Source: a candidate division WOR-3 bacterium (GTDB taxonomy: Bacteria; Hydrothermota; Tepidihabitantia; SM23-42). From it: a DNA stretch of 64,000 bases. A program made the translations under genes and the position numbers. The stretch lies in the NCBI GenBank assembly GCA_020341755.1, contig CP070834.1, positions 1,749,141 through 1,813,140 on the forward strand. Reading direction: 5' to 3'. This document shows, piece by piece, positions 18,215 to 60,986 of this stretch. The first letter of the stretch is position 1. Each line of letters opens with the position of its first letter. The notes under the pieces were generated by a model, which saw only the letters and a list, made by a program, of their open reading frames with translations, made no database searches and had not been told where the DNA came from.

Positions 18215-19747
18215 TTACGGGGATAAGTCGTACAGGTATGCCGCAGCGCCGGGTTCCAGTTTCATGTCAATACGTTCACCCATGGTATTGAGATATGAGA
18301 TAAACAGCTGTTCTTCATCGGCGCCGAAGGCAGTGGCGACATGCGAAAAAAGGATCCAGACACGTTTTTTACCCTGTAAACCCTGAAGTTCATTATTGTA
18401 GCCTGACCAATCATCCCGTGATTCAGCTCCGACAATATGATCACCCGTATACCCGATTCGTCCCTGGTAATACCGGAACGCATTGTAGGCACCGTAATAT
18501 ACATAGAGCACATCGCCATCCTGATACTGACTGACGACGTACTCGAGCGCGGGCCGGAGTTCCTCCGGCGCGCGCGGTTGGATCAGCCGGTAGCCTGCGT
18601 TCGCAACCGGGTAGGCGATCAAAAGCAAGACCACTACCGCACCGAGGAGGCGTGAAGTATTTGCGATCGCCTTTGCGAGGTATACGATGCCCAAAGCAAG
18701 CGGCAGGAGCATGAGCGGCGTCAAAAAGAGCAGGAGCCGACCCTCGAAAGGATAGAGTTGCAGTCCCGAGGCGAAAAAGGTAAATATGAGCGTGAACATG
18801 ACCACGCCCAGCACGGCCCGGCACTTTCGGAACTGGACAACACACCCGGTGAAAAAGCTGATGACCGCAAGGATGAGTCCGTACTCCCACAACCCGAGCG
18901 GGAACTTGAACATGCGCAGGAACACATATCCATACCACGCGATATCTGAGAGACTCCGGGGAGGCAGGGGAGCAAATGCATGTTGCCAGAACGTAAGCAG
19001 TTCTGGACTGGTGCTTGAACTCCTGAGTACGGCGAGGTATTGAACCAGAAAACTTGTCAGGGCGGCAAGGCACGCAATGCTCAGCCACCAGAACATGCGG
19101 TACTTTTTCGTGTGCAGGATCCAGAGCACGCTCACCAGTATACAGGCAGTAAACACAAAGACCGCTGGGTAGGAGAACCAGAAACCGACCGCACCAATCA
19201 CTCCCAGGAGAAGAACGTAACGCGGCTGTAGTTTATTTTGTAATACCCATAAACACGAAAGTATGATAAGGAGACCGACCATGACATCGCCTGAATACGG
19301 TTTTACCTCGGATGCAAAATATATGAGATGGTCGCCCACGGAAAAGAGCAGCAGTGCAACCGGGATCGCTGAACGCTCCAGGGTCTTTTTTACTACCTGC
19401 CAGAACAGAACTAACGCCAGTATCCCGGCAATAAGGGGGAACAGGCGCAGTGCCATTTCTCCGGTACCCAGCATAGTGCTCGCAAATTTTTCTGAGATGA
19501 GGAATCCAATCGGTGCCGCCTGGACATAACCGAGCGGTTGAAGAAGTCCCGCGTATGATCGCTCGAGTATATTCAGCGCAAGCGGTGCCTCGCCTTCGGT
19601 CAGGGAACGATTGAACAGAAATTGTGCAATCCTCAGCACGATGCCGAGTACGATGATGCTGCTGATCCCAGTTCGAGAGCTCATAATCCTGATACCATGA
19701 TCAAGATATCGATCAAAAGTCCATTTCAAGGTTTTTTTGCGCTCCAT
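18215..19747 (-). CDS. polytopic membrane glycosyltransferase, GT-C type (ArnT/PMT family 39/83-like)
   Basis: The 510-aa ORF has roughly 11 predicted TM helices followed by a roughly 130-aa soluble C-terminal domain. This architecture is typical of undecaprenyl-phosphate-dependent GT-C transferases. It is convergent with the lpxB block. Confidence 0.4.
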   Translation of the reverse strand: MERKKTLKWTFDRYLDHGIRIMSSRTGISSIIVLGIVLRIAQFLFNRSLTEGEAPLALNILERSYAGLLQPLGYVQAAPIGFLISEKFASTMLGTGEMALRLFPLIAGILALVLFWQVVKKTLERSAIPVALLLFSVGDHLIYFASEVKPYSGDVMVGLLIILSCLWVLQNKLQPRYVLLLGVIGAVGFWFSYPAVFVFTACILVSVLWILHTKKYRMFWWLSIACLAALTSFLVQYLAVLRSSSTSPELLTFWQHAFAPLPPRSLSDIAWYGYVFLRMFKFPLGLWEYGLILAVISFFTGCVVQFRKCRAVLGVVMFTLIFTFFASGLQLYPFEGRLLLFLTPLMLLPLALGIVYLAKAIANTSRLLGAVVVLLLIAYPVANAGYRLIQPRAPEELRPALEYVVSQYQDGDVLYVYYGAYNAFRYYQGRIGYTGDHIVGAESRDDWSGYNNELQGLQGKKRVWILFSHVATAFGADEEQLFISYLNTMGERIDMKLEPGAAAYLYDLSP

Positions 19748-19829: not shown

Positions 19830-19857
19830 TTGACACACTTGGATATATCGGTATAAT
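19830..19857 (+). promoter_or_regulatory. sigma70-like promoter (TTGACA-16-TATAAT)
   Basis: A consensus TTGACA and TATAAT are separated by 16 nt in the divergent intergenic region, roughly 135 nt upstream of ispA. Confidence 0.45.
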
Positions 19858-19948: not shown

Positions 19949-19976
19949 TTGACAGAGATTGATTTTAGGTTAAAAT
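19949..19976 (+). promoter_or_regulatory. second sigma70-like promoter (TTGACA-16-TAAAAT) proximal to ispA
   Basis: TTGACA, a 16-nt spacer, then TAAAAT. The -10 element ends 16 nt before the ispA ATG, which would give a very short leader. Confidence 0.4.
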
Positions 19977-19992
19977 GTGATTTAACTCATTT

Positions 19993-20865
19993 ATGACAGT
20001 AACAGATATCAACACAACACTTGGTGAATACAAAGTCCTTATCGATAAGGCTCTTTATAGTTATTTTTCAGGCAAAAATAGATTATTCGACATGATGTAT
20101 TACTCGCTCGACAACGGTAAACGGATACGACCGATACTCGTGATCGCAACATTCAAAGCCTGCGGAGGCTCGGATATGGGGGTAATCATGCCGATCGCCT
20201 GCGGGCTCGAGCTCATCCACACCTATTCACTGATCCATGATGACCTGCCATCTATGGACGATGATGATTTCAGGCGTGGTAAGGCATCGGCGCATAAACA
20301 ATACGGCGAGGCAGCCGCGATCCTTTCGGGTGACGGGCTGTTCGCATATGCCTTTGAGCTTTTTACCCAGGGCAGCGGTTCTCCCGAACAGAAAACCGCG
20401 GTAATCACGCACGTCAGCCAAGCAGTCGGTCCTGGGGGCGTGGTCTATGGTCAGGTGCTGGATACGACCGACCGACCGGTGCCGTCGCCAAAGATGCTGA
20501 GAAAGATACACCTGAACAAGACTGCAAAATTCATCGCGGCGTCCGTGAAATGCGGCGCGATCATGGGTTCGGCATCACAAAAACAGTCCGATGCACTCCA
20601 TGATGCGGGCATATATCTTGGTATGCTGTTCCAGTACACCGATGATATCCTCGATATTACCGGAAGAAAAGAACGGCTCGGCAAGACACCGGGCAAGGAC
20701 GCAGCTGCGGGTAAACTTACGGCAGCCGGATTGTATGGTCTCGATGGTGCCCGGTTTCGGGCGGAAAGGTATGCGCAGCGTGCGACCGACGGGTTCCTGG
20801 CCTGCGGCAAGCAGTTTCAGGAACTTGTTCAGATCACAGATTTCGTGTTGAAAAGGACATATTGA
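19993..20865 (+). CDS. ispA: polyprenyl diphosphate synthase (farnesyl/geranylgeranyl diphosphate synthase)
   Basis: The 290-aa ORF has the first Asp-rich motif LIHDDLPSMDDDDFRRG and the second Asp-rich motif FQYTDDILD. Confidence 0.8.
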   Translation: MTVTDINTTLGEYKVLIDKALYSYFSGKNRLFDMMYYSLDNGKRIRPILVIATFKACGGSDMGVIMPIACGLELIHTYSLIHDDLPSMDDDDFRRGKASAHKQYGEAAAILSGDGLFAYAFELFTQGSGSPEQKTAVITHVSQAVGPGGVVYGQVLDTTDRPVPSPKMLRKIHLNKTAKFIAASVKCGAIMGSASQKQSDALHDAGIYLGMLFQYTDDILDITGRKERLGKTPGKDAAAGKLTAAGLYGLDGARFRAERYAQRATDGFLACGKQFQELVQITDFVLKRTY

Positions 20866-20905: not shown

Positions 20906-22765
20906 ATGTCGGTATTAAAAAGAATTAACAAACCGGCAGATTTACGGAAACTTTCCATTGATGAACTTCAAATGCTTGCCCGGGAGATACGACACAAGAT
21001 CGTGCATACCTGTGCCGATACCGGGGGGCATGTTGCTCCTTCACTCGGCGTCGTAGAATTGACCCTCGCCCTGTACCGGGTATTCGATGCCGCCAGTGAC
21101 AAGATCATCTGGGATGTCGGGCACCAAACGTATGCACAGAAATTGATCACCGGACGTCGAGACCGATTCCATACCCTGCGAACGTTCAAGGGCATCAGTG
21201 GGTTTCCGAAGCGGAAGGAGTCGAAGTATGATGTATTCGATACCGGACACAGTTCGACCTCCCTTTCTGCAGCGACCGGTTTCGTACTGGCACGTGATGC
21301 ACGTGGAGAAAACCATAATATCATCAGCGTTATTGGAGACGGATCGCTCGGTGCCGGGATAGCGTTCGAAGCCCTGAACCATCTCGGGCATCTGAAAAAA
21401 GACGTGATCGTCGTGCTGAACGATAATGAACGATCCATAGGCGAGAGCGTCGGCGCCCTGAGTCAGTATCTCACCAGGGTCATCACGACCACCACCTATA
21501 ACCGGTTTCGGGACGATCTCTGGAAATTTCTCGGACGTTTTCCTCCGTATTTCAGGGACCGAAGCCGCAATCTGGCAAAGAGGATACAGGAGGGTTTCAA
21601 GGGTCTTTATGCGCCCGCGGTCATTTTTGAGGAACTCGGTTTCCGGTACATCGGTCCGCTGAACGGGCACCGGCTCGATGAACTGATCGATACATTCGCC
21701 CGCATCAAAGATATGCGGGGACCGCGTTTTGTACATGTCGTTACAAAGAAAGGCAAGGGATTCCGGACCGCCGAGGAACACCCTGAGACATTCCACGGCA
21801 TCGGACCGTTCTGCGTTGAGAGCGGTGCTGTGAAGAAAAAGGGTCAATCATGGACCGGTGTTTTCGGCGAAGAGATCGTACGGCTCGCCAAGAAAAACAA
21901 AAAGATCATTGGTATTACGGCCGGTATGTGTCTGGGGACCGGGCTCAAGAAATTCCGTGAGGAATTACCCCGACAGTTCTATGATGTCGGTATTACTGAG
22001 CAGCATGCCGTGACCATGGCAGCAGCGCTTGCCCTGGAAGGGTTCATCCCGGTATGTGCTATATATTCAACCTTCCTGCAGCGGGCATACGATCAGATAA
22101 TACATGATGTATGCCTGCAGAACGCGCCGGTCATATTTGCGGTCGATCGGGCGGGTCTTGTCGGACAGGATGGCCCGACCCATCACGGTCCGTTCGATCT
22201 CTCGTATTTCCGCTGCGCACCGAATATGATCATCAGCGCTCCGAAAGATAAAAATGAGTTCATCGCTTTGCTCAGTACTGCCGTCGCCCACCGGAAAGGT
22301 CCGTTCATGATACGGTATCCGCGTGGGTCATGCACTGATTTTGGCAAGAAGGCTCCTTCCAGGATCCCCATAGGGACTTGGGAGATACTGCACTCCGGCA
22401 AGAAAATCGCGGTTCTGGCAGTGGGTTCAATGGTAGCGGAAGCGGAAAAAGCCCTGCCCGTGCTGAGGAAGTCTAGAGTGGACCCGGTGCTGGTGAATGC
22501 GCGTTTCATTAAACCCCTCGATGAGAAGATGCTCAGGCGCCTGGCACAGAAGGTCACGACGTTCGTCACGGTGGAAGAGAATACGGTACTCGGTGGATTC
22601 GGCTCTGCGGTCATGGAATTCTGTTCGAAGAATGATCTTCCGGTCAAGGTCTCGTGCATCGGTCTTCCCGATGAATTCGTCGAGCACGGGTCACGCGATA
22701 AGCTACTCGCTCTTGCCGGACTCACGGCGGAAAATGTCGCTCGACGGCTATTGAATATAAGATGA
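20906..22765 (+). CDS. dxs: 1-deoxy-D-xylulose-5-phosphate synthase
   Basis: The 619-aa ORF starts MSVLKRINKPADLRKLSIDELQMLAREIR... It has a TPP-binding GDGSLGAG...N region. Organisation and length are those of DXS, which is typically co-transcribed with ispA. Confidence 0.9.
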   Translation: MSVLKRINKPADLRKLSIDELQMLAREIRHKIVHTCADTGGHVAPSLGVVELTLALYRVFDAASDKIIWDVGHQTYAQKLITGRRDRFHTLRTFKGISGFPKRKESKYDVFDTGHSSTSLSAATGFVLARDARGENHNIISVIGDGSLGAGIAFEALNHLGHLKKDVIVVLNDNERSIGESVGALSQYLTRVITTTTYNRFRDDLWKFLGRFPPYFRDRSRNLAKRIQEGFKGLYAPAVIFEELGFRYIGPLNGHRLDELIDTFARIKDMRGPRFVHVVTKKGKGFRTAEEHPETFHGIGPFCVESGAVKKKGQSWTGVFGEEIVRLAKKNKKIIGITAGMCLGTGLKKFREELPRQFYDVGITEQHAVTMAAALALEGFIPVCAIYSTFLQRAYDQIIHDVCLQNAPVIFAVDRAGLVGQDGPTHHGPFDLSYFRCAPNMIISAPKDKNEFIALLSTAVAHRKGPFMIRYPRGSCTDFGKKAPSRIPIGTWEILHSGKKIAVLAVGSMVAEAEKALPVLRKSRVDPVLVNARFIKPLDEKMLRRLAQKVTTFVTVEENTVLGGFGSAVMEFCSKNDLPVKVSCIGLPDEFVEHGSRDKLLALAGLTAENVARRLLNIR

Positions 22766-25700
22766 ATTTCATCATTTCGATATTCCTCTTCACACAGCTG
22801 CTGAATCCCTATGAACATCGCATACTCTTCACTTCAGAGGGTGACTTGGTCGTATTCGCTCGTTATTTCAGCGGCGAGCTAATCAGCATCGATAGTGTGA
22901 AGAGCATTAATGATTACCTCGACGAGAGTATCAAGACGCACAACCGGGAACTCCTCCTGCAACGGCTGAAACAGGATATCGTACAGCAGGGAGGATATGC
23001 AAACAAAGGATTATTCGGCACGTTTGAAATACCCTTGCCCAAGGGAACGTTCGGCGAGTTCATGGGTGAGACCGGTAAACTCGATGTCGGAGGCCATGTC
23101 AAGATCACTATGGGCGGAAGCAGGACCTTCCTCGAGAACCTGCCTGAAACCCAGGGGTCGTCCTGGCTGCCCGAGCTCGAGATGAAACAGGAGATGGCGG
23201 TGAATCTGGATGGCCAGGTCGGCGATCGGATGCGTGTTTTTATCGACCATAACTCCGAACGCATTAACGAGTCACAGAACAAGATCACCGTCACCTATAC
23301 GGGCAGGGAAGATGAGATAATACAGGAGATCGAGGGTGGTGACACGCAGCTCTCCATTCCGGCGACAAATTATACCGGAGATATCCCATCGCATCGAGGG
23401 CTCTTCGGCATAAAATCGTCCGCGAAACTGGGACCGCTCGACCTGGTCGCCATTGCCAGTAAAGAACAGACCCAGACCGAGGAGATAGAGATAGAAGGCT
23501 CGATACAGGCGGAGATCGATACTATCTGGGCGCGTAGATACCAGACGCGCAGGTTTTTCTCGCTCGGTTTGCCCGAGCCCGATGCCGTCATACGCGACCT
23601 GCGGGTCTATGTTGATGATAACATCCCGCAGAATAATAATGTTGAACCCACGTATTCCGGAACTGCATATCTCGATATTAATGATGATAATATCCCCGAT
23701 TTTCAGGGCAACCCGACGAATTCTGATTCGGGGTATTTTTCCCGAAAGACCGAGGGCACCAATGATTATTATATATATGATCCCGCTCGCCAGGTCATTG
23801 AACTGAATTATTCGATCCCTGAGCAACAGGTGCTGGGTGTGTATTACAAAAAGATCATCGGCATCGATACGTTCGAGGTCGGCAGGCTGCCCAGTACCGC
23901 TGATACAACGATACAACTGAAACTGCTCTGTCCTGAATACCGGGACACGACCTCGGCGACGTTCGACTATGAACAAAAAAATTATTATCAGGTGGCAAGC
24001 CGTGGGTCACGGCTCGATAGTCTGAAGATATACTATCTGACGACCGGCGGCGACCATCAGGACCGGCAGGGCGATACAACGTATCTTGAACTGCTCGGAC
24101 TCGATGTCAATCCGCGCGATGGTCGCGTGGACGAAAATTATGTTTACTATTCGAGCCGCGGACTTCTGATCTTTCCTGATCCCGAGCCGTTCGCTTCATC
24201 TGTTTTAAACAATCCTATACCCGAGATATACCGCGACCCAACATTCACCGGTACGGGTTCCTATTACCTGTTCGCGAAGACGCTCGAGGCAAAGCCGGTA
24301 TACAATCTGCCGACGAACGTGGAGACCGTTTTCGTCTATGTCGACGAACAGCTCCAGACCCAGGGTGAGGATTATCACGTTGACTATGACGCCGGCAAGC
24401 TCGAGTTCATGAGGCCCATACAACCCAATCAGCGCGTGCGGATAAAGGCGGAGTACGCGCCGTTCTTTTCGGCCGCCGAGAAGTCGCTCGTCGGCGTGCG
24501 CGGAACACTGCGACCTTTTGGTGATGCCATGCTCGGTTCGTCATTTTTCTGGCGTAATGAATCATACCCTGCTGAGCATATTCGTTTGCGTGAGGAGCCG
24601 TTCAACCGTATGGTCTGGGAGGTCGATTTCACGCTGCCGCAAAAACTACCGTTCATAACACGGGTCGTGGATTGGCTTCCCCTGGTGAGTACCGAGACCG
24701 AATCCCAGTTGAATTTCAGCTTTGAAAATGCATATTCGATCTCTAATCTCAATGCGAAAGGCGAAGTTTTTCTCGATGACCTGGAGTCGACGACCATCGT
24801 CAGCAATGATGTCTCGATCAACCGGACATCGTGGTTCCCGTGTTCAAAACCGGTGGACCGGGATACGAATGATTTTACGCAGACGCGGCTGGTGTGGTAC
24901 AATCCGCGGGACAGGGAACGGCTGCAGGCGAACGACATCTATGAGGATCCGATCGATGAGAACGAGATCGCCGATGTGCTGAATATTAAATTTACACCGG
25001 ATGACAGCCTGTCGTATGCTGGATTGACCCAGTATATTTACACCGAGGATTTTGACGAGATCGAAAATCTCGAGCTCATCATCAATGGTAAGGGCGGGCG
25101 GATGCATGTTGATTTCGCACAGGATATCAATGAAGATCAGCTGCGAAGGAATCAAGACGGTGCACTTGTCGGGTATGGTTCGTTCCAGGACGAGGATATG
25201 AACAAGAATTATGTCTGGACCCAAAATGATGAAGATACGGGGCTTGACGGTGTGTATGGCGACGATGGTTCAAACCAGGACGCGCTGGACGACGGCAATG
25301 ACGATTACGTTGCCTATGATAGTACCGGTCGCGTCAACGGTACGGAGGGGAATAGGATATGGGACACCGAGGACCTCAACCGGGACGGCACGCTCAATGG
25401 AGAAGACCGGTATTTCAGTTATGTCATAGACCTTGACAGTGATAGTTTCCAGATCGATGCTGGTCTGCGAGAAGGGTGGAAGATGTTCCGTGTTCCTATC
25501 AAGGATACGCTGAACCAAGATACGGTCGTCGGGGTGCCGGACTGGCACAATATCAAATACGTACGCATATGGTTCGACAATTTCACCCAGCCCGAGACCC
25601 TTCTGCTCTTCAGGCTCAGCGCGACCGGCAGCCGGTGGAAGAATTATGGCATTGTCGGAGGTAGACAGCCGCCTCTTCAGAGCGAATCGTTCAGTCTGGC

Positions 25701-28164
25701 ACCGGTCAATACCAAGACAAACACGAATTATCTACCGCCCTATCCGGTGGAGCGGGATGAATTCGGACAGGTCAAGACCGAAGGCGGTCTGGAGCTGAGG
25801 CTCACAGATATCGAGGAGAACCATACGTGCGTGGCGCATCGCAGGACCGATGACAATGAGGACTACCGGGCGTATGACACACTGACATTTTATCTGCACG
25901 CGAACAATTCCAATCCGCTGGTATCGCTGAGGATCGGTAGTGACAGTTTGAATTTCTACGAGTATACAACGGATTTTGAAAATGGAGAGATCGGGTACAA
26001 CCAGTACCGGCTGTTCAGGGTGGCGATGGTGCAGTTCCTCGATCTAAAGAAAGAGAAGAATGAAGCAGGTGTCGATACGATGATCGCCGGCGAATATATC
26101 GTCGTCGGGAATCCATCCCTTGCGCAGAATAAATTTCTGGAGATCCGTTTGACCAATGCATTCGTCACTCCGCTGAGCGATACCTTCTGGTTCAACGATG
26201 TCATGCTCCTATCCCCGAAATCAGACGTCGGCAGGATATTGCGCAGCAATGGTTCACTGAACGTTGCCGATCTTGCTCATGTTAACTTCGCCTACGATGA
26301 ATCGAACGGCCGGTTCAAACGATTATCAGAATCCAAGGAGATTTCGACGTCGGGCGCGAGCAGGAGTTATCTGGTCAGTACGACGGTGTCGCTCAATAAA
26401 CTCCTGCCTGACAGTTGGTATTTCAGTATTCCTGTTACGTACAGCTATCGCAACTCCCAGACCAGTCCCCGTTTCTGGTATAATGCGAATGATATCGAAG
26501 TGAGCGGAGCAGATGCGGATTTATTGAGGAGAGCGGTCATTATCAAGTCATACTCGACCGGGTTTTCCAAAACGAACTCAAAACACTGGCTGCTGAAGAA
26601 TACTCTTGACCGCATTGCGCTATCGTACGATCGGACACAGCAGTCTTCGAGTGCAGAACAGGATTCCAGTTCTACGGATAACAAGGTCTATCGATCCTCG
26701 TATACGCTTGATCCGAGGTGGAACCTGAAGATGCTGGGTCAGACATTTTTTCTGCTTCCAAGGAATGTAAGTCTGAACGCCACGTATACCGACAACCTCG
26801 TCGAATCATTCTTCCGTGAAACGGTTGTCGATACCTTCCGAGAGGCTGATCTCGGGACACGCCATAACCGCACACTGACACCATCGGTTTCGATCGCCAT
26901 GAGCCCGCATCAGATTGTAAATGCTACGTACACCTTCAACCAGGTGCGTGATTCGGTAGAAACCCGCGGTCGATTCGGAGAAGAAGTGCAGCGCAATCAA
27001 ACCATCAATGCCTCCCTGGCCCAGAGTTTTAAGATCGTTAGCCCGCGATTTTATTATAATGCCACCTATACTGAAAATCACAGTTTTGAGTTGCGACAGC
27101 AAGAGGATCTGCGGAATGTTACGAATACTGGACGATACGGTGTCGATGCTACGTTCAATATCACGACCTTGCTGCGACTCATCGGGCGACTTCGCGACGA
27201 AACCCAGGATTCGCTCATTGTTGCCGGATCGCCGGCCTGGTTCGCCAAGAAGATCGATGACCTGGCAAAATACGTTACCAATCCGACCTTTAACTATTCA
27301 CGGCAGCGAAACTCGAGCTACCTGCAGATCAGACAGCGGCCGGATATCGCCTACCAGTGGGGGTGGGTGGATTCGCTGCCCGACGATATCGTTGCCGAGG
27401 GTAGTTATCCTGGCAGGGGTATGACCGATACCTATGGTGTCAATTCCGGTATCAACATCGCACAGTTATTCAGTCTTTCAGGGGGTTACAGTGGAGCCGT
27501 AGGTCGAACATTTTACTACGACAAAGAAATAAGAAATGAATCGGTTGCCTACCCCAACGCATCGCTCCGGATCAGTAATCTTCATGCGCTTCCATTTTTG
27601 AAGAAATATACGCGAAACTCGTCGCTCATGGCGTCTTTCAACCAGTTGTATGACAAGAAATTCGAGATCATCGATGATAGTACTTCGCTTCTCTCTGAAT
27701 CTCAGACATTCAATTTGAACCCCCTGGTGAGCTGGCAGACAACCTGGCTCAAGGGGATTTCCAGTCAGCTCGATATCACCTATTCAGAGACAAACGCCAA
27801 GGAGTATGATGTCGTTGACACGCTGCCCTCGAAGAGAGTGAACATGGGTGGTTCGGTGAATTTTTCCTACCGGTTCAGTGCTCCACGAGGATTGGGGATT
27901 CCGCTCCTCAGGGGGTTGAAATTCTCATCGAACATGTCCCTGAACCTGGGGGGGAGTTACAGCCGCACCAGGAACTACTCACGCGATCTGGTTAATCCCA
28001 TCAATGATTCGAGTACACTCGGTGTAAACGTGGGATTATCCTATGATTTTTCCTCCAGCATAACCGGTGGCGCGACGGTCGATTATACGCAGAACAGAGA
28101 CTATAATGCCGATCAAGACACGCGACGCGTCGGTATGAATTTCTGGGTCAATATTAATTTCTAA
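22762..28164 (+). CDS. giant outer-membrane-type protein, candidate SprA/Sov-like type IX secretion translocon
   Basis: The 1800-aa ORF overlaps the dxs stop by ATGA. It has an N-terminal hydrophobic segment. The extreme C-terminus GMNFWVNINF has alternating hydrophobic residues and a terminal Phe, which is the beta-barrel OMP signature. Many Y/N/S/T-rich beta-strand-like segments are present. Its size and the genomic context (a glutaminyl cyclase next door, a T9SS CTD cargo gene 10 kb away) suggest SprA. Confidence 0.35.
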   Translation: MNFIISIFLFTQLLNPYEHRILFTSEGDLVVFARYFSGELISIDSVKSINDYLDESIKTHNRELLLQRLKQDIVQQGGYANKGLFGTFEIPLPKGTFGEFMGETGKLDVGGHVKITMGGSRTFLENLPETQGSSWLPELEMKQEMAVNLDGQVGDRMRVFIDHNSERINESQNKITVTYTGREDEIIQEIEGGDTQLSIPATNYTGDIPSHRGLFGIKSSAKLGPLDLVAIASKEQTQTEEIEIEGSIQAEIDTIWARRYQTRRFFSLGLPEPDAVIRDLRVYVDDNIPQNNNVEPTYSGTAYLDINDDNIPDFQGNPTNSDSGYFSRKTEGTNDYYIYDPARQVIELNYSIPEQQVLGVYYKKIIGIDTFEVGRLPSTADTTIQLKLLCPEYRDTTSATFDYEQKNYYQVASRGSRLDSLKIYYLTTGGDHQDRQGDTTYLELLGLDVNPRDGRVDENYVYYSSRGLLIFPDPEPFASSVLNNPIPEIYRDPTFTGTGSYYLFAKTLEAKPVYNLPTNVETVFVYVDEQLQTQGEDYHVDYDAGKLEFMRPIQPNQRVRIKAEYAPFFSAAEKSLVGVRGTLRPFGDAMLGSSFFWRNESYPAEHIRLREEPFNRMVWEVDFTLPQKLPFITRVVDWLPLVSTETESQLNFSFENAYSISNLNAKGEVFLDDLESTTIVSNDVSINRTSWFPCSKPVDRDTNDFTQTRLVWYNPRDRERLQANDIYEDPIDENEIADVLNIKFTPDDSLSYAGLTQYIYTEDFDEIENLELIINGKGGRMHVDFAQDINEDQLRRNQDGALVGYGSFQDEDMNKNYVWTQNDEDTGLDGVYGDDGSNQDALDDGNDDYVAYDSTGRVNGTEGNRIWDTEDLNRDGTLNGEDRYFSYVIDLDSDSFQIDAGLREGWKMFRVPIKDTLNQDTVVGVPDWHNIKYVRIWFDNFTQPETLLLFRLSATGSRWKNYGIVGGRQPPLQSESFSLAPVNTKTNTNYLPPYPVERDEFGQVKTEGGLELRLTDIEENHTCVAHRRTDDNEDYRAYDTLTFYLHANNSNPLVSLRIGSDSLNFYEYTTDFENGEIGYNQYRLFRVAMVQFLDLKKEKNEAGVDTMIAGEYIVVGNPSLAQNKFLEIRLTNAFVTPLSDTFWFNDVMLLSPKSDVGRILRSNGSLNVADLAHVNFAYDESNGRFKRLSESKEISTSGASRSYLVSTTVSLNKLLPDSWYFSIPVTYSYRNSQTSPRFWYNANDIEVSGADADLLRRAVIIKSYSTGFSKTNSKHWLLKNTLDRIALSYDRTQQSSSAEQDSSSTDNKVYRSSYTLDPRWNLKMLGQTFFLLPRNVSLNATYTDNLVESFFRETVVDTFREADLGTRHNRTLTPSVSIAMSPHQIVNATYTFNQVRDSVETRGRFGEEVQRNQTINASLAQSFKIVSPRFYYNATYTENHSFELRQQEDLRNVTNTGRYGVDATFNITTLLRLIGRLRDETQDSLIVAGSPAWFAKKIDDLAKYVTNPTFNYSRQRNSSYLQIRQRPDIAYQWGWVDSLPDDIVAEGSYPGRGMTDTYGVNSGINIAQLFSLSGGYSGAVGRTFYYDKEIRNESVAYPNASLRISNLHALPFLKKYTRNSSLMASFNQLYDKKFEIIDDSTSLLSESQTFNLNPLVSWQTTWLKGISSQLDITYSETNAKEYDVVDTLPSKRVNMGGSVNFSYRFSAPRGLGIPLLRGLKFSSNMSLNLGGSYSRTRNYSRDLVNPINDSSTLGVNVGLSYDFSSSITGGATVDYTQNRDYNADQDTRRVGMNFWVNINF

Positions 28165-28172
28165 CATCTCTT

Positions 28173-28979
28173 ATGTCAGGCCGGTTCCGTATCAGATGGT
28201 CGATCTGGTTACTCGTGCTGCTCGCAGGTGTTTCTGCGTCACCTCTCGGGGCGAGGCGTCCTTATGTTGTCCTCGAGGAGTTTTGTGCGATCGGCGAGCG
28301 TGTTCCCGGCACGGCGGGACACAGAGAAGCACGAGATTACATTATACGAAATCTTGAAAATCCCCAGATCGATTCCTTTTACGCGCGTGGGGTCACGTTC
28401 TATAATATTTTAAAAAGGTTTCCCGGTGAGCACACGATCGGGATCGCGGCACACTGGGATTCGGATATCGGTTGTCCCGGGGCTAATGATGGAGGGTCGG
28501 GTGTCGCTCTCCTTTTAAGTCTCGCAGATACCCTTGAAAAAAACCCGGCTGAGCGGGGTATCGATATTATTTTTTTTGACGGCGAGGACGTCGGCAAAGC
28601 GGATCGTATCGGTTCCCAGCATTTTGCCGAGCAGTGCCGTGACGAATATTCCTTTATCGTTGTGATCGATATGGTAGGCGACAAGGATCTCCAGATCTTC
28701 CAGGAAGGATACTCGGTCAGGAGTTTTCCTCTTCTCGTCGACAGCTTGTGGGAGATCGCCATGCAGGCGGCACCTTCAGCATTCATACCGGCAGTACGGT
28801 ACTTCATTATCGATGATCATGTTTCCCTTATCACCAACGGTATCAGAGCGGTGAACGTGATTGATTTTGACTACCCATACTGGGATACCCGAGATGACAC
28901 GATCGACAAGTGCAGTGAAGAAAGTCTGCACAAAGTCTATGCTTTTCTCCTCGCTCTTGTGTATGGTGATCGATCTTAG
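28173..28979 (+). CDS. M28-family zinc enzyme, glutaminyl-peptide cyclotransferase-like
   Basis: The 268-aa ORF has a signal peptide. Motifs AAHWDSD, ANDGGSGVA, IIFFDGEDVG, VVIDMVG and IIDDHVSL...YPYWDTRDDT align with the metal-binding and catalytic positions of M28 aminopeptidases and animal-type glutaminyl cyclases (FFDGEE, DDH, VWHTMDD). Confidence 0.55.
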   Translation: MSGRFRIRWSIWLLVLLAGVSASPLGARRPYVVLEEFCAIGERVPGTAGHREARDYIIRNLENPQIDSFYARGVTFYNILKRFPGEHTIGIAAHWDSDIGCPGANDGGSGVALLLSLADTLEKNPAERGIDIIFFDGEDVGKADRIGSQHFAEQCRDEYSFIVVIDMVGDKDLQIFQEGYSVRSFPLLVDSLWEIAMQAAPSAFIPAVRYFIIDDHVSLITNGIRAVNVIDFDYPYWDTRDDTIDKCSEESLHKVYAFLLALVYGDRS

Positions 28980-29010: not shown

Positions 29011-29328
29011 ATGAAGAGACGTACCATTATTGTTCTGTGTATGGTAATAGCCGTGCTGATCGCTGTCACGATCGCTGGCTATGTACAGAGGCAGCGCTTA
29101 CGGCAGCAGTATACCCTGCTCATCGAAGAAGCGGCGGTTTGCATATCCATTAACCATGCGAGTGCAGAAGAACTCACAACACTCCCCGGGATCGGTCCTC
29201 TGTGTGCACAGCGCATCATCGAATACCGGGAAGCGCATGGACCGTTCAGGAGTCTCGACGACCTTAAGGACGTCAAAGGTATTGGGGAAAAAATTTTCAG
29301 TCGTATCGCACCATACATAAAACTGTAG
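29011..29328 (+). CDS. comEA: ComEA-family helix-hairpin-helix DNA-binding protein
   Basis: The 105-aa ORF has an N-terminal TM/signal segment followed by INHASAEELTTLPGIGPLCAQRIIEYREAHGPFRSLDDLKDVKGIGEKIFSRIAPYI, a tandem HhH as in ComEA. Confidence 0.75.
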   Translation: MKRRTIIVLCMVIAVLIAVTIAGYVQRQRLRQQYTLLIEEAAVCISINHASAEELTTLPGIGPLCAQRIIEYREAHGPFRSLDDLKDVKGIGEKIFSRIAPYIKL

Positions 29329-29384: not shown

Positions 29385-29412
29385 TTGACTTGCCGGTGTA
29401 TGTGTATACAAT
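29385..29412 (+). promoter_or_regulatory. sigma70-like promoter (TTGACT-16-TACAAT)
   Basis: TTGACT, a 16-nt spacer, then TACAAT. An AGGAGG Shine-Dalgarno follows and the ATG at 29433 is roughly 20 nt downstream. Confidence 0.45.
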
Positions 29413-29432
29413 ATGCTACAAAAGGAGGTATC

Positions 29433-29822
29433 ATGGAACTGCCATATGGTGATATAAAAGGAAACACTTTAAGCATGAAGTTTTCGACGGCGGATTATTC
29501 AATCGCATCGGTCATGAACGCGATCAAGGTACATATAGACGTCCTGGAAGAACTCGGCGTCATGTTCCTCGGTGCCCAGACCGAGATCGTTGCCGGGCCG
29601 ACACCGGTGTTCCAGCCAGTACCGGTTGTGGCACAGTTCGTGTATACAGGCAAAGACAATACCCGGGACACTCTCGAGAAAGTGTATACACTCGTGTGGC
29701 AGGGTATCATCGCATCGTTCCCCGATGAAGCATCCTGGTCCCAAGCCAAAGAGGCGTACGCATCCTTCATAGCTGCCCAAGCCGATCTGCTGCGTGCTCG
29801 TACCGAGGCATCGAAAGAATAG
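29433..29822 (+). CDS. hypothetical protein (129 aa)
   Basis: The start is at the internal ATG with a strong AAAGGAGG Shine-Dalgarno 5 nt upstream. No recognisable domain. Confidence 0.45.
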   Translation: MELPYGDIKGNTLSMKFSTADYSIASVMNAIKVHIDVLEELGVMFLGAQTEIVAGPTPVFQPVPVVAQFVYTGKDNTRDTLEKVYTLVWQGIIASFPDEASWSQAKEAYASFIAAQADLLRARTEASKE

Positions 29823-29883: not shown

Positions 29884-31392
29884 ATGGTCTTCTTAACTGC
29901 TCTGTTTCTCATCAACCTGCAGGCTGACCTGCGCTGGGTCGAGGTCGATGTTGCACTCTGGCAGGATGGCAGGGCGGATTTCGTGTACCGGGTGCACTGG
30001 AACGTTATGTCCGGGACGATGAGCGGGTTCTACTTCCAGGAAAAGACCGTCGATCCCTATTTTGAATACGAGAGCGCCTATGCAGTCGATGACTGGGGTA
30101 ACGAGTACCGGATCGAGATCAAGGACCTCGGCAACAAGTACGATATCATACTGGGAGACAAAAAACGCTTCGGCCCCGGAGAAATCACCTATATCTTCCA
30201 CTTTGGAGGAGACCTCGGCAGCAGTGGCAATCTGGCGCTGACCGAGAGTGAATTCGGTGACCTCGTCGTGTTCCACTGGGCACCTGCTCAATGGGATGAG
30301 CCTCTTGAACACTATACAGTGTACGTGTACTATCCGATCAAATCAGCGCGTGGGAGGGTGGACCCTGCTGAATACGGATTCCGGACAGAGCGGTTCATGA
30401 ATGAAGAGTACCTGCTTTCGTATTTCAGTCAGGAATACGAAGGGGAGCAGTGGTTCACGGTTCGTATTCACAAGAACGATCCTCCGTCGACGTATAAAAT
30501 GCTCATCCAACAATACGTACCTGCCGAATACTTCCGTGCTGAGAAATTCGGAACCATAACGATCACTCCAGAAGCCCGCGATGGATTCGGCTTTCCTCTG
30601 GAGATTTTGTGGATGCTTGTGTACATCGTCCCCTATCTCATGTATGGCAACCGGAAGGCGAAAAAGATAAAAGGTACCTACAGCCAGGTAGCAAGCCTGA
30701 CGTGGCTTCGGGACGACTGGGTACCTCCTAAGATCGAAGTGGCACAATTCCGGAAATCGGGTAAAGTCGCCAAACTTGATCTGATAGAGGCAGCGTTCTT
30801 GCTCGATTATCCGGTCAATAAGATCTTGACCATCCTGGCATCGAAATTAGAAGATAACGGTATCATCAAAGTACAATCTACGGCACCGGTCAAGATAACC
30901 GTCCTGCAGCGACCGACCGTGAGATACTATGAAGCAGCATTTCTCGATGCAGTAAAACCGGATGGCACTTTCGATGAAGCAGGCCTACAGAGAGTGGTCA
31001 CGGAAGTCGTTGAGAAGATTTCCCAGAAGGCTTGGGACTGCGATCTCGAGGCAACGAAATTGTATTATGAAGAGAAGATCGGTGCCCATGTTCCTGAAAC
31101 ATCGCTCGATAAAGAATACGATAAACGTGAATATTATGATTACCTCATGAACAGGGATTTCACGCGGCGCCATTATTACAGCGAACGGGAGCAGGGTTTT
31201 GTCATACCGGGGGAAGCGGTCAAGAGCTATTCTGCTTTCGTACGTTCGGATGCATGTCATAGCGCATGCTATGTGCATACAGCATGCCATGATGCCTGTC
31301 ATTCAGCATGTCATTCGGCCTGTCATTCAGCGTGCCATTCAGCATGCCATTCGGCGTGCCATTCGGCGTGTGTGAGTGGAGGAGCCCACTGA
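29884..31392 (+). CDS. membrane protein with C-terminal Cys/His-rich (His-Ser-Ala-Cys)n tandem-repeat tail
   Basis: The 502-aa ORF has its first ATG directly after an in-frame TAG. It has an N-terminal hydrophobic segment, a roughly 240-aa beta-rich domain, a central TM helix (FPLEILWMLVYIVPYLMYG) and a cytosolic-looking domain. It ends ...SDACHSACYVHTACHDACHSACHSACHSACHSACHSACHSACVSGGAH. Confidence 0.55.
   Translation: MVFLTALFLINLQADLRWVEVDVALWQDGRADFVYRVHWNVMSGTMSGFYFQEKTVDPYFEYESAYAVDDWGNEYRIEIKDLGNKYDIILGDKKRFGPGEITYIFHFGGDLGSSGNLALTESEFGDLVVFHWAPAQWDEPLEHYTVYVYYPIKSARGRVDPAEYGFRTERFMNEEYLLSYFSQEYEGEQWFTVRIHKNDPPSTYKMLIQQYVPAEYFRAEKFGTITITPEARDGFGFPLEILWMLVYIVPYLMYGNRKAKKIKGTYSQVASLTWLRDDWVPPKIEVAQFRKSGKVAKLDLIEAAFLLDYPVNKILTILASKLEDNGIIKVQSTAPVKITVLQRPTVRYYEAAFLDAVKPDGTFDEAGLQRVVTEVVEKISQKAWDCDLEATKLYYEEKIGAHVPETSLDKEYDKREYYDYLMNRDFTRRHYYSEREQGFVIPGEAVKSYSAFVRSDACHSACYVHTACHDACHSACHSACHSACHSACHSACHSACVSGGAH
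31251..31372 (+). repeat. imperfect 12-nt tandem repeat (about 10 units, consensus CATTCRGCNTGY) encoding (HSAC)n
   Basis: The repeat is directly visible at the 3' end of the 29884..31392 CDS. The unit differences lie almost only at third codon positions. Confidence 0.8.
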
Positions 31393-31542
31393 ATGCAGAA
31401 CGCTGAATGCAGAAGGCAGAATATTGCAGTCTTCGACTGCATCGATGATCCCGGTTATGTTATTAAAAAATATGCATATTCAAGGAATCGGGATTCTCGC
31501 TTCGCGGAACAGTGATGAAACAGAAAGATTACGGAGATCTTT

Positions 31543-31620
31543 ATGCGAAATAAGACATGTATGATTGCTGATTTTAAATTTATAATTGATAATTTGAAAT
31601 GTCAAATTGAGAAGAAATGA
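31543..31620 (+). CDS. candidate small ORF (25 aa, MRNKTCMIADFKFIIDNLKCQIEKK), possible precursor peptide
   Basis: An ATG with GGAG 6 nt upstream starts the ORF. Its stop overlaps the ATG of the radical SAM gene as ATGA. It is AT-rich and small, and could alternatively be promoter or leader sequence. Confidence 0.25.
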   Translation: MRNKTCMIADFKFIIDNLKCQIEKK

Positions 31621-38122: not shown

Positions 38123-39239
38123 TCAATGCAGGACAATGAAGGTTCGGTGCAGAGTGCCATGATTCCTTGATTTCAACAGATATACGCCGTTCGGCAGGTC
38201 ATCTACATCGATACAGGCCGTGCGCTGGAGCAGGTCCACGGACAAAATTTTAGCGCCGGTCACATCGTAGATATCACATATACCCATTGTGTACTCGGTT
38301 ACTATGGAGAGCCGTGTCCGTGCTGGATTCGGGAGTACGCGGATACAAGACACTGAAGCATCACTGATTTCCTCCATACCGACGATCTGCTCAAAATGCA
38401 CGGTACCTGCCTCACCCGGTTGAGGATTCCCATAGGATCCAGTACCGGCATAACCACCGTATGCAGAAAGCCAGTTTCCAATGGTATCGAGCTGTTGTAC
38501 ATAGAATATCTTGATGCGGCCACCGGCACCGCCGCCACCACCACCAAAGCTCCCGTCACCGCCTGCATTGCCGTCAGCACGCAATCCGCTGTAACGTATC
38601 GTAACTGAGTCGGCACTAATCCGTATTCCACCACCTGAACCACCGCCGCCCGCTTCGAGGCTGCCGTCAAATCCGCGCTCACCAGATACTTTTATCTGTG
38701 CAGTATCGATGATTACACAGACGCCATAAAGGGAAATCATAGCGCCACCATTGCCTCCGATGCCATCGACCGCGCTCAACCGTCCGGCACCGCCGCCAGA
38801 GCCAGGTTCGATCAGGGTATCTGAAAAGTTACCATAGATGGTTCCTCCAGTTCCTCCATACAGATCACCGCCCATACCGCCGTTGCCGCCGTAGGCACCG
38901 CCACCGCCTGCACCGCCGCTCACGCCACCGGCACCTCCACCGCCCGTGCCGTAACCCCAGGGGTGTGCGTTAAGGTAGCCACCAAAAGGACCGCGAGTCG
39001 ATCCAATTATCGATGCTGTATGGACCATGATGCGGGGTGCGATAAGCTCGAGTACCCCAAAACTGTCGGCTGCCATGCTCCATGGTCGTACATACAGTAT
39101 TCCATTATTGCGTATATCGACCAGTACATTGTATTGATGCCGTCCACAGATCGTGAGGCTGTCGTTGTCCACGATCAAACTGTCCGTATCCTCATACACA
39201 TATGAGAGAGCAATGAACACCAATAATACAAAATGCATG
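38123..39239 (-). CDS. glycine-rich secreted protein with T9SS C-terminal sorting domain (Por_Secre_tail-like)
   Basis: The start is at ATG MHFVLLVFIALSYV (signal peptide), preceded by an AGGAGG Shine-Dalgarno. The body has many GGxGG repeats interspersed with short beta-strands. The C-terminal roughly 80 aa (...IRVLPNPARTRLSIV...ICDIYDVTGAKILSV...LPNGVYLLKS...TFIVLH) match the T9SS CTD pattern. Confidence 0.6.
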
Positions 39240-39328
39240 TTTCCTCCTCTGGTATATAATAACAGCCGCGGTATAGATGTCAAGAGGACCATGTTGACAA
39301 TATTTCGTTATTAGATATAATTACTTTT

Positions 39329-59908: not shown

Positions 59909-59910
59909 GA

Positions 59911-60876: not shown

Positions 60877-60986
60877 TTATTTCCTCCTTTCAAAGGAACC
60901 TATCAACCGTCGTCGAGAGATGACGGGCAGGAAATAATACGAACTGTTTATTTTTATGGGAACGTACATAGCAACGTGATACATCA

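What the first reader, a model, noticed from the sequence alone, without database searches (positions are those of the whole stretch)
22762..28979. ispA-dxs operon running directly (ATGA overlap) into a 1800-aa OMP-like giant and a glutaminyl-cyclase-like gene
The 1800-aa protein ends in an alternating-hydrophobic strand with terminal Phe (...NFWVNINF), the hallmark of beta-barrel outer-membrane proteins. At this size the best-known candidates are SprA/Sov translocons of the type IX secretion system. The next gene, 8 nt later, is a secreted M28 glutaminyl-cyclase-like enzyme. In Bacteroidota that enzyme pyroglutamylates T9SS cargo N-termini. A protein with an unmistakable T9SS CTD lies at 38.1-39.2 kb. 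Fusion of this pair to the isoprenoid genes ispA-dxs by overlapping stop/start codons is an unusual operon context. If SprA is confirmed, this would be a T9SS core component in a lineage that (judging from Mvh/Hdr and the general gene content) is not a classical Bacteroidota member.
Basis: partly seen in the sequence, partly recalled or inferred. Interest (0 to 1): 0.6.

Follow-up and report, generated by a model that had tools for sequence, protein, structure and literature searches.

The report
Compact SprA secretion pore in WOR-3

Summary
ORF 22762-28164 (1800 aa) scores 370 bits on the SprA/Sov model TIGR04189 (cut-off 200). It is colinear end to end with Bacteroidota SprA. AlphaFold models of both halves find only Flavobacterium johnsoniae SprA in the PDB (E 1e-41 to 1e-61; next hit 1e-5). 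The genome is a candidate division WOR-3 MAG. About 80 relatives share the 1793-1820 aa size, roughly 600 aa shorter than Bacteroidota SprA through many scattered deletions.

The dxs-sprA ATGA overlap is conserved in all 14 related loci that could be tested, and persists as GTGA at 38% identity. It is therefore an old operon arrangement, probably with no functional meaning.

The next gene belongs to the bacteroidal type-II glutaminyl-cyclase group of M28 enzymes. In this clade the zinc-binding His is Asp and the protein is not a lipoprotein, so activity is unproven. SprA itself carries a nearly invariant Gln after an 11-residue leader.

Type-A CTD cargo genes are present: one in the window and at least nine near sprA in relatives. 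No other T9SS core gene lies in the 64 kb, and the rest of the genome could not be searched.

Verdict: new member of a known kind, moderate interest.

The parts
19830..19857 (+). Candidate sigma-70 promoter of the operon (TTGACA-16-TATAAT, 12 of 12). A second 11/12 site lies at 19949-19976.
   Evidence: Consensus scan. This is a pattern match only. No comparable site lies directly upstream of sprA.
19993..20865 (+). ispA-type short-chain prenyl (farnesyl) diphosphate synthase, 290 aa
   Evidence: NF045485 270.7 bits (cut-off 275, so just below it); PF00348 181.8 bits (cut-off 27). Syntenic in all related loci that extend far enough.
20906..22765 (+). dxs, 1-deoxy-D-xylulose-5-phosphate synthase, 619 aa
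   Evidence: TIGR00204 802.9 bits; 72-76% identical in relatives.
22762..22765 (+). ATGA stop/start overlap between dxs and sprA (translational coupling inferred)
   Evidence: The same 4-nt overlap is found in all 14 related loci where the junction could be read, and as GTGA in L019.
22762..28164 (+). sprA/sov homologue: compact (1800 aa) T9SS outer-membrane translocon
   Evidence: TIGR04189 370.5 bits (cut-off 200); PF14349 91.2 bits. phmmer to PDB 6h3i/6h3j E 2e-25 in colinear stretches. Colinear alignment with Bacteroidota SprA. AF2 models with pLDDT 86 and 81; Foldseek top four hits are SprA chains.
22762..22797 (+). Codons 1-12: an 11-residue uncharged hydrophobic leader (MNFIISIFLFT) followed by Gln12, the candidate +1 residue after signal-peptide cleavage
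   Evidence: M-x(9-10)-Q-[LF]xxPYE in 76 of 78 clade orthologues. Residues 2-14 are modelled as a helix. Cleavage itself is inferred, not shown.
28173..28979 (+). M28-family, glutaminyl-cyclase-like periplasmic protein, 268 aa. It has an SPI-type signal and no lipobox. Asp238 (28884-28886) replaces the zinc-ligand His.
   Evidence: PF04389 94 bits. The top eight PDB hits are bacteroidal type-II QCs, E 9e-23 to 8e-16, against 5e-11 for true aminopeptidases. Motif analysis. JGI names many orthologues 'glutaminyl-peptide cyclotransferase'.
29011..29328 (+). comEA-like helix-hairpin-helix protein with an N-terminal membrane anchor, the last conserved gene of the block
   Evidence: TIGR00426 65.9 bits (cut-off 53.1); PF12836 86 bits. 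It follows sprA (with or without the M28 gene between) in all relatives, including L018 and L019.
38123..39292 (-). Gly-rich secreted protein with a type-A T9SS C-terminal sorting domain (residues 320-387, about 38126-38335): candidate cargo
   Evidence: TIGR04183 25.3 bits (cut-off 23); PF18962 31.4 bits (cut-off 27). Sequence. It seeded a local jackhmmer search that found more CTD proteins in relatives.

Best explanation
ORF 22762-28164 encodes the SprA/Sov orthologue of a candidate division WOR-3 bacterium. SprA is a very large single-chain outer-membrane beta-barrel that acts as the translocon of a type IX secretion system.

By analogy with F. johnsoniae SprA, the proposed pathway is as follows. 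Proteins carrying a type-A C-terminal domain are exported to the periplasm by Sec. They enter the barrel from the periplasmic side. They leave through a lateral opening, bound to a carrier protein.

The WOR-3 version is a streamlined full-length form, about 600 residues shorter through many small deletions, and it ends in a canonical aromatic beta-signal.

The gene is probably transcribed from the strong promoter-like site upstream of ispA. It is translationally coupled to dxs through a conserved ATGA overlap. This most likely reflects an inherited operon arrangement that gives steady housekeeping expression, not a biochemical link to isoprenoid synthesis.

The downstream M28 protein is a periplasmic member of the bacteroidal glutaminyl-cyclase family. 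It may convert N-terminal Gln of exported proteins, SprA's own Gln12 among them, to pyroglutamate.

Shown here: family membership, fold, synteny, presence of CTD cargo, and the motif changes in the M28 protein. Inferred: transport mechanism, signal cleavage before Gln12, cyclase activity, co-transcription, and the existence of the remaining T9SS parts.
For: - TIGR04189 scores 370.5 bits (cut-off 200) and SprA_N 91 bits.
- The only PDB sequence hits are F. johnsoniae SprA.
- The alignment with 2400-2460-aa Bacteroidota SprA is colinear end to end at about 20-25% identity. The length difference is spread over at least 18 deletions.
- AF2 models of residues 601-1800 (pLDDT 86.2) and 1-1200 (pLDDT 80.7) consist mostly of long beta-strands. 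In Foldseek the four best hits are SprA chains 8gl6/8gl8/6h3i/6h3j (E 1e-56 to 1e-46 and 5e-61 to 5e-41). The next hit is about 1e-5.
- Cargo: there is one TIGR04183-positive protein in the window. Nine of ten proteins tested in relatives' loci within 10 kb of sprA pass the cut-off, including a T9SS-dependent M6-like metalloprotease homologue (NF052323, 337 bits).
- The size class of 1793-1820 aa is shared by about 80 homologues, those that carry an organism name being labelled WOR-3.
- ispA-dxs-sprA-M28-comEA is conserved in all related loci that extend far enough, with the ATGA overlap in 14 of 14.
- The M28 protein is closest to solved bacteroidal QCs. It keeps the catalytic Glu138 and the QC-specific Asp139 ligand.
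- Gln12 is conserved in 76 of 78 orthologues. More distant SprAs, including Bacteroidota ones, also have A|Q at the predicted cleavage site.
Against: - No other T9SS core gene (PorV, PorU, PorK/L/M/N, SprE/PorW, SprT/PorT) was detected among the 48 ORFs of the 64-kb window or in about 20 related loci. The remaining roughly 2.3 Mb of the genome could not be searched.
- The barrel could only be modelled in two halves, so closure, strand number, cap and lateral gate are not verified.
- The cyclase-like protein has Asp238 where all characterised QCs have the zinc-ligand His. It also lacks a loop and the lipid anchor.
- The M28 gene is missing next to sprA in L019, so the pairing is not obligatory.
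- An 11-residue uncharged leader is unusually short for a Sec signal peptide.
- Two recent WOR-3 genome papers do not mention T9SS, secretion or gliding.
Confidence: 0.85

Rival explanations
1. The protein is an SprA-family barrel, but it does not work as part of a canonical T9SS. It could be a stand-alone outer-membrane export or uptake channel in a lineage that lacks the PorKLMN motor and ring and the PorV shuttle.
For: No other T9SS core gene is found in 64 kb or in related loci. About 600 residues are lost relative to the characterised protein. Identity to Bacteroidota SprA is only 20-25%.
Against: Classical type-A CTD proteins are frequent right next to sprA in this clade. CTDs are only known as T9SS signals. 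The equivalog-level HMM is passed with a wide margin. T9SS genes are normally scattered in Bacteroidota genomes (established knowledge of the family), so their absence from one 64-kb window says little.
Confidence: 0.1
2. The downstream M28 protein is not a glutaminyl cyclase. It would then be an aminopeptidase, an enzyme with a different metal and substrate, or a catalytically dead binding protein. Its position next to sprA would be plain synteny.
For: His to Asp at the third zinc ligand in 110 of 119 clade orthologues, while 146 of the 150 nearest cluster representatives keep His. A loop is deleted relative to the His-bearing outgroup L018. There is no lipobox. The M28 gene is absent next to sprA in L019. 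NCBI calls it only 'M28 family peptidase'.
Against: The eight best solved relatives are all bacteroidal QCs, about 10 orders of magnitude better than true aminopeptidases. The catalytic Glu138, the QC-specific Asp139, Asp166 and the DDH motif are all kept, and PMC7948796 describes Asp183 as bacteroidal-QC-specific. Asp can still ligate a metal. Candidate substrates with Gln at +1 are common in the clade.
Confidence: 0.3
3. The coupling of sprA to ispA-dxs is functional. Isoprenoid (undecaprenyl-phosphate) supply would be co-regulated with T9SS because type-A cargo is anchored to a lipid-linked surface glycan.
For: The ATGA/GTGA overlap is kept from 88% down to 38% SprA identity. Neighbours include lpxB, a sugar epimerase and a PMT_2/ArnT-like glycosyltransferase.
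Against: More distant compact SprA genes sit in unrelated contexts: secDF, lptFG, bamA-ompH. No such link is known in Bacteroidota. ispA-dxs is a common housekeeping operon to which downstream genes can simply be appended.
Confidence: 0.1

Closest known systems
SprA of Flavobacterium johnsoniae (PDB 6H3I, 6H3J, 8GL6, 8GL8) and Sov of Porphyromonas gingivalis; NCBIfam TIGR04189
   Same: The equivalog HMM is passed. The sequence is colinear over its whole length. The predicted fold of both halves matches. The gene sits in a lineage with type-A CTD proteins. A Gln lies at the predicted mature N-terminus.
   Different: 1800 aa against 2403 aa, with at least 18 scattered deletions; the largest are about 81 and 104 aa in the last third and about 60 aa at the N-terminus. 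Identity is only 20-25%. The protein ends in a terminal Phe beta-signal, which the two Bacteroidota SprA sequences examined here (P0114, P0117) do not. The leader is very short and uncharged. The gene is translationally coupled to dxs. Partner proteins were not identified.
Bacteroidal type-II glutaminyl cyclases (PgQC 6QQL, TfQC 6QRO, BtQC 4FUU, PdQC 3TC8)
   Same: M28 fold family. Same motifs: HxD, GANDG (Asp ligand), GED (catalytic Glu plus QC-specific Asp ligand), DMVG, DDH. Exported to the periplasm.
   Different: The third metal ligand is Asp238 instead of His. The protein is about 40-60 residues shorter. It is not a lipoprotein. It is encoded directly after sprA. Activity is untested.
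The Bacteroidetes Q-rule (Bochtler et al. 2018, PMC5837995)
   Same: Gln follows the predicted signal-peptide cleavage site in SprA and in roughly 9 of about 21 exported protein families seen in the window and related loci. A QC-family gene is present.
   Different: The rule was described as typical of Bacteroidetes and not of the whole FCB group. Here it appears in WOR-3, the sample is small, the cleavage sites were judged by eye, and several leaders are unusually short.
ispA-dxs operon (xseB-ispA-dxs in Escherichia coli; from my own knowledge)
   Same: ispA is directly followed by dxs in one transcription unit.
   Different: The unit is extended downstream by sprA, an M28 gene and comEA. There is no xseB. 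More distant relatives have folD upstream.

Membership tests
SprA/Sov T9SS translocon (TIGR04189, PF14349) | Score above the curated cut-off of the equivalog HMM | tested here: met
   370.5 bits against 200, E 1.7e-110; PF14349 91.2 bits against 27.
SprA/Sov T9SS translocon (TIGR04189, PF14349) | Homology over the whole length, not just one domain | tested here: met
   Five colinear phmmer stretches to 6h3j. MAFFT alignment with P0114 and P0117 covers residues 1-1800 with only insertions on the Bacteroidota side.
SprA/Sov T9SS translocon (TIGR04189, PF14349) | Fold of the solved translocon | tested here: met
   Foldseek on both half-models: SprA chains rank 1-4, E 1e-41 to 5e-61, TM (query-normalised) 0.43-0.61; the next hits are 1e-5 to 7e-6.
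SprA/Sov T9SS translocon (TIGR04189, PF14349) | Closed 36-strand barrel with extracellular cap and lateral opening | tested here: inconclusive
   The 1200-residue limit forced modelling in halves. The DSSP strand list of the C-terminal model gives roughly 27-28 long strands in about the last 680 residues (my count), but closure, cap and gate cannot be judged.
SprA/Sov T9SS translocon (TIGR04189, PF14349) | Partner proteins PorV (carrier), Plug, PPI, SprE/PorW, SkpA | not testable with these tools
   None was recognised in the window. The TPR protein at 45131-47371 matches only generic TPR structures.
Type IX secretion system (whole system) | Cargo with a type-A C-terminal sorting domain | tested here: met
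   Window 38123-39292. Nine of ten proteins from relatives' loci are above the TIGR04183 cut-off.
Type IX secretion system (whole system) | PorK/L/M/N (GldK/L/M/N) motor and ring; PorU/PorV/PorZ/PorQ attachment complex; PorT/SprT | not testable with these tools
   Absent from the 64-kb window and from about 20 loci of up to ±10 kb around sprA homologues. There are only weak sub-threshold PorZ-model hits, driven by the CTD.
Bacteroidal type-II glutaminyl cyclase | Closest solved relatives are QCs, not aminopeptidases | tested here: met
   Top eight PDB hits are 7d1b, 6qro, 3tc8, 3gux, 7d18, 6qql, 7cje and 4fuu (E 9e-23 to 8e-16). The YwaD aminopeptidase scores 5e-11. Re-annotation of 3tc8 and 4fuu as QCs is from PMC7948796.
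Bacteroidal type-II glutaminyl cyclase | Single-zinc site formed by Asp, Asp (QC-specific) and His | tested here: not met
   Asp106 and Asp139 are present, but the His position is Asp238 in the window protein, in the 10 locus orthologues that cover the site, and in 110 of 119 clade proteins. 146 of 150 wider representatives keep His.
Bacteroidal type-II glutaminyl cyclase | Inner-membrane lipoprotein anchor (Cys after the signal peptide) | tested here: not met
   No lipobox. The predicted SPI cleavage is ...VSA|S in the window and ...WA|K in relatives. Only 3 of 119 have a lipobox-like motif.
Bacteroidal type-II glutaminyl cyclase | Cyclisation of N-terminal Gln to pyroglutamate | not testable with these tools
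   Needs an enzyme assay or N-terminal mass spectrometry.

The most novel reading that the evidence does not exclude
The WOR-3 clade runs a streamlined T9SS. In this reading, a minimal 1800-aa SprA is hard-wired to housekeeping isoprenoid genes. It is paired with a soluble, metal-site-remodelled (Asp-Asp-Asp) glutaminyl cyclase. Both serve a Q-rule-type secretome that uses unusually short uncharged leaders. That would carry both the Q-rule and the T9SS-cyclase association beyond Bacteroidota. It would also define the smallest natural SprA scaffold, and the system might work with a reduced or different set of partner proteins.
Probability: 0.15. Interest if true: 0.6.

Novelty: new member of a known kind. 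Interest (0 to 1): 0.35.

Why it matters
- It places the T9SS translocon and its CTD cargo in candidate phylum WOR-3. Current reviews list T9SS genes for Bacteroidota and a few FCB phyla but not WOR-3 (PMC11285876). No paper in the searched library links the two.
- The roughly 1800-aa form is the shortest size class recovered in the one homology search run here. It shows which roughly 600 residues of the 2400-aa model protein are dispensable, which could guide structural and mechanistic work.
- The conserved sprA/cyclase-like gene pair and SprA's invariant Gln give genomic support to the T9SS/Q-rule co-occurrence noted by Bochtler et al. (PMC5837995).
- None of this changes what a T9SS is understood to be.

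Tried and rejected
A local jackhmmer over the fetched loci replaced it.
- Looking up the exact SprA protein to extend beyond the window failed because it is not indexed.
- The three large TPR proteins (440-4168, 4165-6174, 45131-47371) were considered as SprE/PorW candidates. They show only generic TPR matches, so they are not claimed.
- Unannotated ORFs (9509-10828, 17144-18205, 18215-19747, 29385-29822, 29884-31392, 32905-33876, 50478-51701) were scanned for PorV/PorP/PorT-type families, with no result.
- Small barrel-like ORFs in relatives (L003:19689-20282, L004:14388-14843) had no family hit.
- Weak PorZ, PorU and PorE model hits in relatives are due to the shared CTD and lie far below the cut-offs, so they are rejected as evidence for those components.
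- Two WOR-3 genome papers and their supplements contain nothing on T9SS.
- An Rfam scan for a SECIS element near the in-frame TGA in L012 and L007 found nothing at gathering threshold.
- The idea that the 1800-aa size reflects truncation or a split gene was rejected. The alignment is colinear to both ends and about 80 orthologues share the size.
Full report
**1. Observation**

| Feature | Coordinates | Size / detail |
|---|---|---|
| ispA | 19993-20865 | 290 aa |
| dxs | 20906-22765 | 619 aa |
| large ORF | 22762-28164 | 1800 aa |
| M28 gene | 28173-28979 | 268 aa, 8 nt after the 1800-aa ORF's stop |

- The ATG of the 1800-aa ORF overlaps the dxs TGA as ATGA.
- The large protein ends ...VGMNFWVNINF.
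- ispA and dxs are identified by NCBIfam and Pfam. dxs is far above its cut-off; ispA scores 270.7 bits on NF045485, just below its 275-bit cut-off, and passes Pfam polyprenyl_synt.
- A protein with a type-A T9SS sorting domain lies at 38123-39292 on the minus strand (TIGR04183 and PF18962, both above cut-off).

**2. Identity of the 1800-aa protein**

- It scores 370.5 bits on TIGR04189, 'T9SS outer membrane translocon Sov/SprA', whose curated cut-off is 200. It scores 91 bits on Pfam SprA_N.
- Against all PDB sequences it matches only F. johnsoniae SprA, in five colinear stretches.
- A MAFFT alignment with homologues up to 2459 aa shows colinearity from end to end, at about 20-25% identity to Bacteroidota proteins.
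- The roughly 600-residue difference is spread over at least 18 deletions. The largest are about 81 aa after residue 1491, about 104 aa after residue 1595, and about 60 aa at the N-terminus. The protein is therefore a compact full-length form, not a fragment.
- AlphaFold2 models were built on a 63-sequence alignment:

| Model | Mean pLDDT | Foldseek (PDB) ranks 1-4 | Next hit |
|---|---|---|---|
| residues 601-1800 | 86.2 | SprA chains 8gl6, 8gl8, 6h3i, 6h3j; E 1e-56 to 1e-46 | about 1e-5 |
| residues 1-1200 | 80.7 | same four SprA chains; E 5e-61 to 5e-41 | about 1e-5 |

- Both models are dominated by long beta-strands.
- Barrel closure, strand count, cap and lateral gate could not be assessed because only halves fit the size limit.

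**3. Lineage and distribution**

- The identical protein is NCBI JSW02_08630, 'hypothetical protein', from a candidate division WOR-3 MAG with a 2.38-Mb contig.
- Fifteen genome loci from WOR-3, Ca. Stahlbacteria and TA06 MAGs carry orthologues at 55-70% identity.
- About 80 database proteins of 1793-1820 aa form this group. They are followed by 1814-2003-aa proteins at 27-33% identity, then by 2100-2500-aa Bacteroidota-type proteins at 21-26%.
- A few WOR-3 homologues are already auto-named 'cell surface protein SprA' or 'SprA N-terminal domain-containing protein'.
- NCBI taxonomy does not place WOR-3 or Stahliibacteriota inside the FCB group. From my own knowledge, phylogenomic trees usually place WOR-3 close to it.
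[quoted passage not shown] WOR-3 is not listed.
- No paper in the library links WOR-3 with T9SS. Two WOR-3 genome papers are silent on it.

**4. Operon context**

- The block ispA-dxs-sprA-M28-comEA is present in every related locus long enough to show it.
- The 4-nt ATGA overlap between dxs and sprA is present in 14 of 14 loci.
- It persists in an outgroup at 43% SprA identity (L018, folD-ispA-dxs-sprA-M28-comEA).
- It also persists, as GTGA, at 38% identity in a hydrothermal-vent contig (L019). There the M28 gene is missing and comEA follows sprA directly.
- Compact SprA genes at 27-33% identity sit in unrelated contexts: secDF, lptFG, or bamA-ompH nearby.
- A perfect sigma-70 consensus lies upstream of ispA. 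No comparable site lies before sprA.
- My inference is a single transcription unit with translational coupling, inherited within one WOR-3 lineage. A functional tie to isoprenoid or undecaprenyl-phosphate supply is possible, because lpxB, an epimerase and an ArnT-like transferase are neighbours. It is unsupported.

**5. The M28 gene**

- Its eight best solved relatives are the bacteroidal type-II glutaminyl cyclases, or structural-genomics entries since re-annotated as such. Their E-values run from 9e-23 to 8e-16, against 5e-11 for true aminopeptidases.
- It keeps His94-x-Asp96, Asp106 (GANDG), the catalytic Glu138, the bacteroidal-QC-specific ligand Asp139, Asp166 and Asp214-Asp215-His216.
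- The third zinc ligand is different. It is His299 in PgQC (PMC7948796) but Asp238 here.
  - The 10 locus orthologues that cover the site also have Asp, as do 110 of 119 clade proteins.
  - By contrast, 146 of the 150 nearest 50%-cluster representatives have His.
  - The L018 outgroup M28 protein keeps His and a longer loop after HWDS.
- The clade proteins have SPI-type signals, not lipoboxes.
- JGI calls many of them 'glutaminyl-peptide cyclotransferase'. NCBI calls them 'M28 family peptidase'.
- The protein therefore belongs to the QC family by descent, but one defining feature is not met and activity is open.

**6. Gln at the mature N-terminus**

- Seventy-six of 78 clade SprA proteins begin with M, then 9-10 uncharged hydrophobic residues, then Gln-[LF]-x-x-Pro-Tyr-Glu.
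- More distant SprAs, including Bacteroidota ones, have ...A|Q at a conventional cleavage site.
- In a by-eye survey of signal-like N-termini in the window plus 17 loci, about 9 of 21 non-lipoprotein families have Gln at the likely +1 position. Several are CTD proteins.
- Bochtler et al. report more than 48% for Bacteroidetes, under 9% for most Chlorobi and 77% for Ignavibacterium. They noted a phylogenetic co-occurrence of T9SS and high Q-values (PMC5837995).
- My survey is small and subjective. It is a lead, not a result.

**7. The rest of the T9SS**

- NCBIfam or Pfam scans of all 48 window ORFs found no PorV, PorU, PorK/L/M/N, SprE or SprT. The related loci did not show them either.
- Cargo is well represented. 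A local jackhmmer search seeded with the window CTD found 11 further CTD proteins, plus a weaker 620-aa family. Nine of ten tested pass TIGR04183.
- A genome-wide survey was not possible with the remaining caps.

**8. Verdict**

This is a new phylum-level member, in a compact size class, of a known machine. It comes with a conserved but probably incidental operon fusion and a cyclase-like neighbour with a remodelled metal site.

- Confidence that the protein is an SprA orthologue acting as a T9SS-type translocon: 0.85.
- Interest: moderate (0.35).

Noticed in passing
L012:3200-5410 (+) and L007:3278-5488 (+): A beta-propeller (BNR/Ycf48-like) protein with a type-A CTD is interrupted by an in-frame TGA at the same codon in two genomes, and coding sequence is conserved on both sides (GGT TGA GGT AAT GCT GAG...). 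It could be selenocysteine, readthrough or two genes. A small hairpin (GACGG-CGGGA-CCGTC) lies about 30 nt downstream. There is no Rfam hit at gathering threshold. The gene is absent from the window.
   Followed up: partly
window 22762-22797; also L005:663-2120, L003:19689-20282, and the 620-aa family after comEA in L001/L004/L005/L006/L007/L012: Several exported proteins of this clade start with very short (10-13 residue) leaders that have no positive charge, followed directly by Gln. This is unusual for Sec signal peptides.
   Followed up: partly
window 17144-18205 (+): A 353-aa protein that is 67-69% identical across relatives, more conserved than SprA, with no Pfam or NCBIfam match. It lies between an epimerase-like gene and the ArnT/PMT_2-like gene.
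   Followed up: partly
window 29884-33876 (+): A conserved trio: a secreted 502-aa protein (weak hit to a Cys-Xaa-Xaa-Xaa radical-SAM target model), a radical SAM/SPASM enzyme (31617-32975) and a membrane protein (32905-33876). It is probably a maturase-substrate cassette.
   Followed up: no
window 28132-28164 (C-terminus of SprA), compared with P0114 and P0117: The WOR-3 SprA and the intermediate-lineage SprAs examined (P0082, P0086, P0093) end in a terminal Phe beta-signal (NINF, FRF, FKF, FTF); P0087 ends RFD. The two Bacteroidota SprA sequences examined end in non-aromatic tails. This may relate to the divergent BAM machinery described for Bacteroidota (PMC12611786, seen only as a title and abstract).
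   Followed up: no
L020:13635-19316: In one distant lineage with a compact SprA (P0084, 29% identity), sprA lies two genes upstream of bamA (Omp85) and an OmpH/Skp gene. A Skp homologue is part of the extended translocon in F. johnsoniae (PMC10994853).
   Followed up: no
L018:1984-3579 (-): A second M28 peptidase, 531 aa and carrying a Por_Secre_tail CTD, lies upstream of the ispA-dxs-sprA block in the 43%-identity outgroup. It is an M28 enzyme that is itself T9SS cargo.
   Followed up: no
window 58445-63955 (-): VhuA/VhuG-like NiFe hydrogenase subunits, an HdrA fused to a VhuD-like domain, and HdrB. This fits the hydrogenotrophic metabolism reported for WOR-3 (PMC12542636).
   Followed up: no
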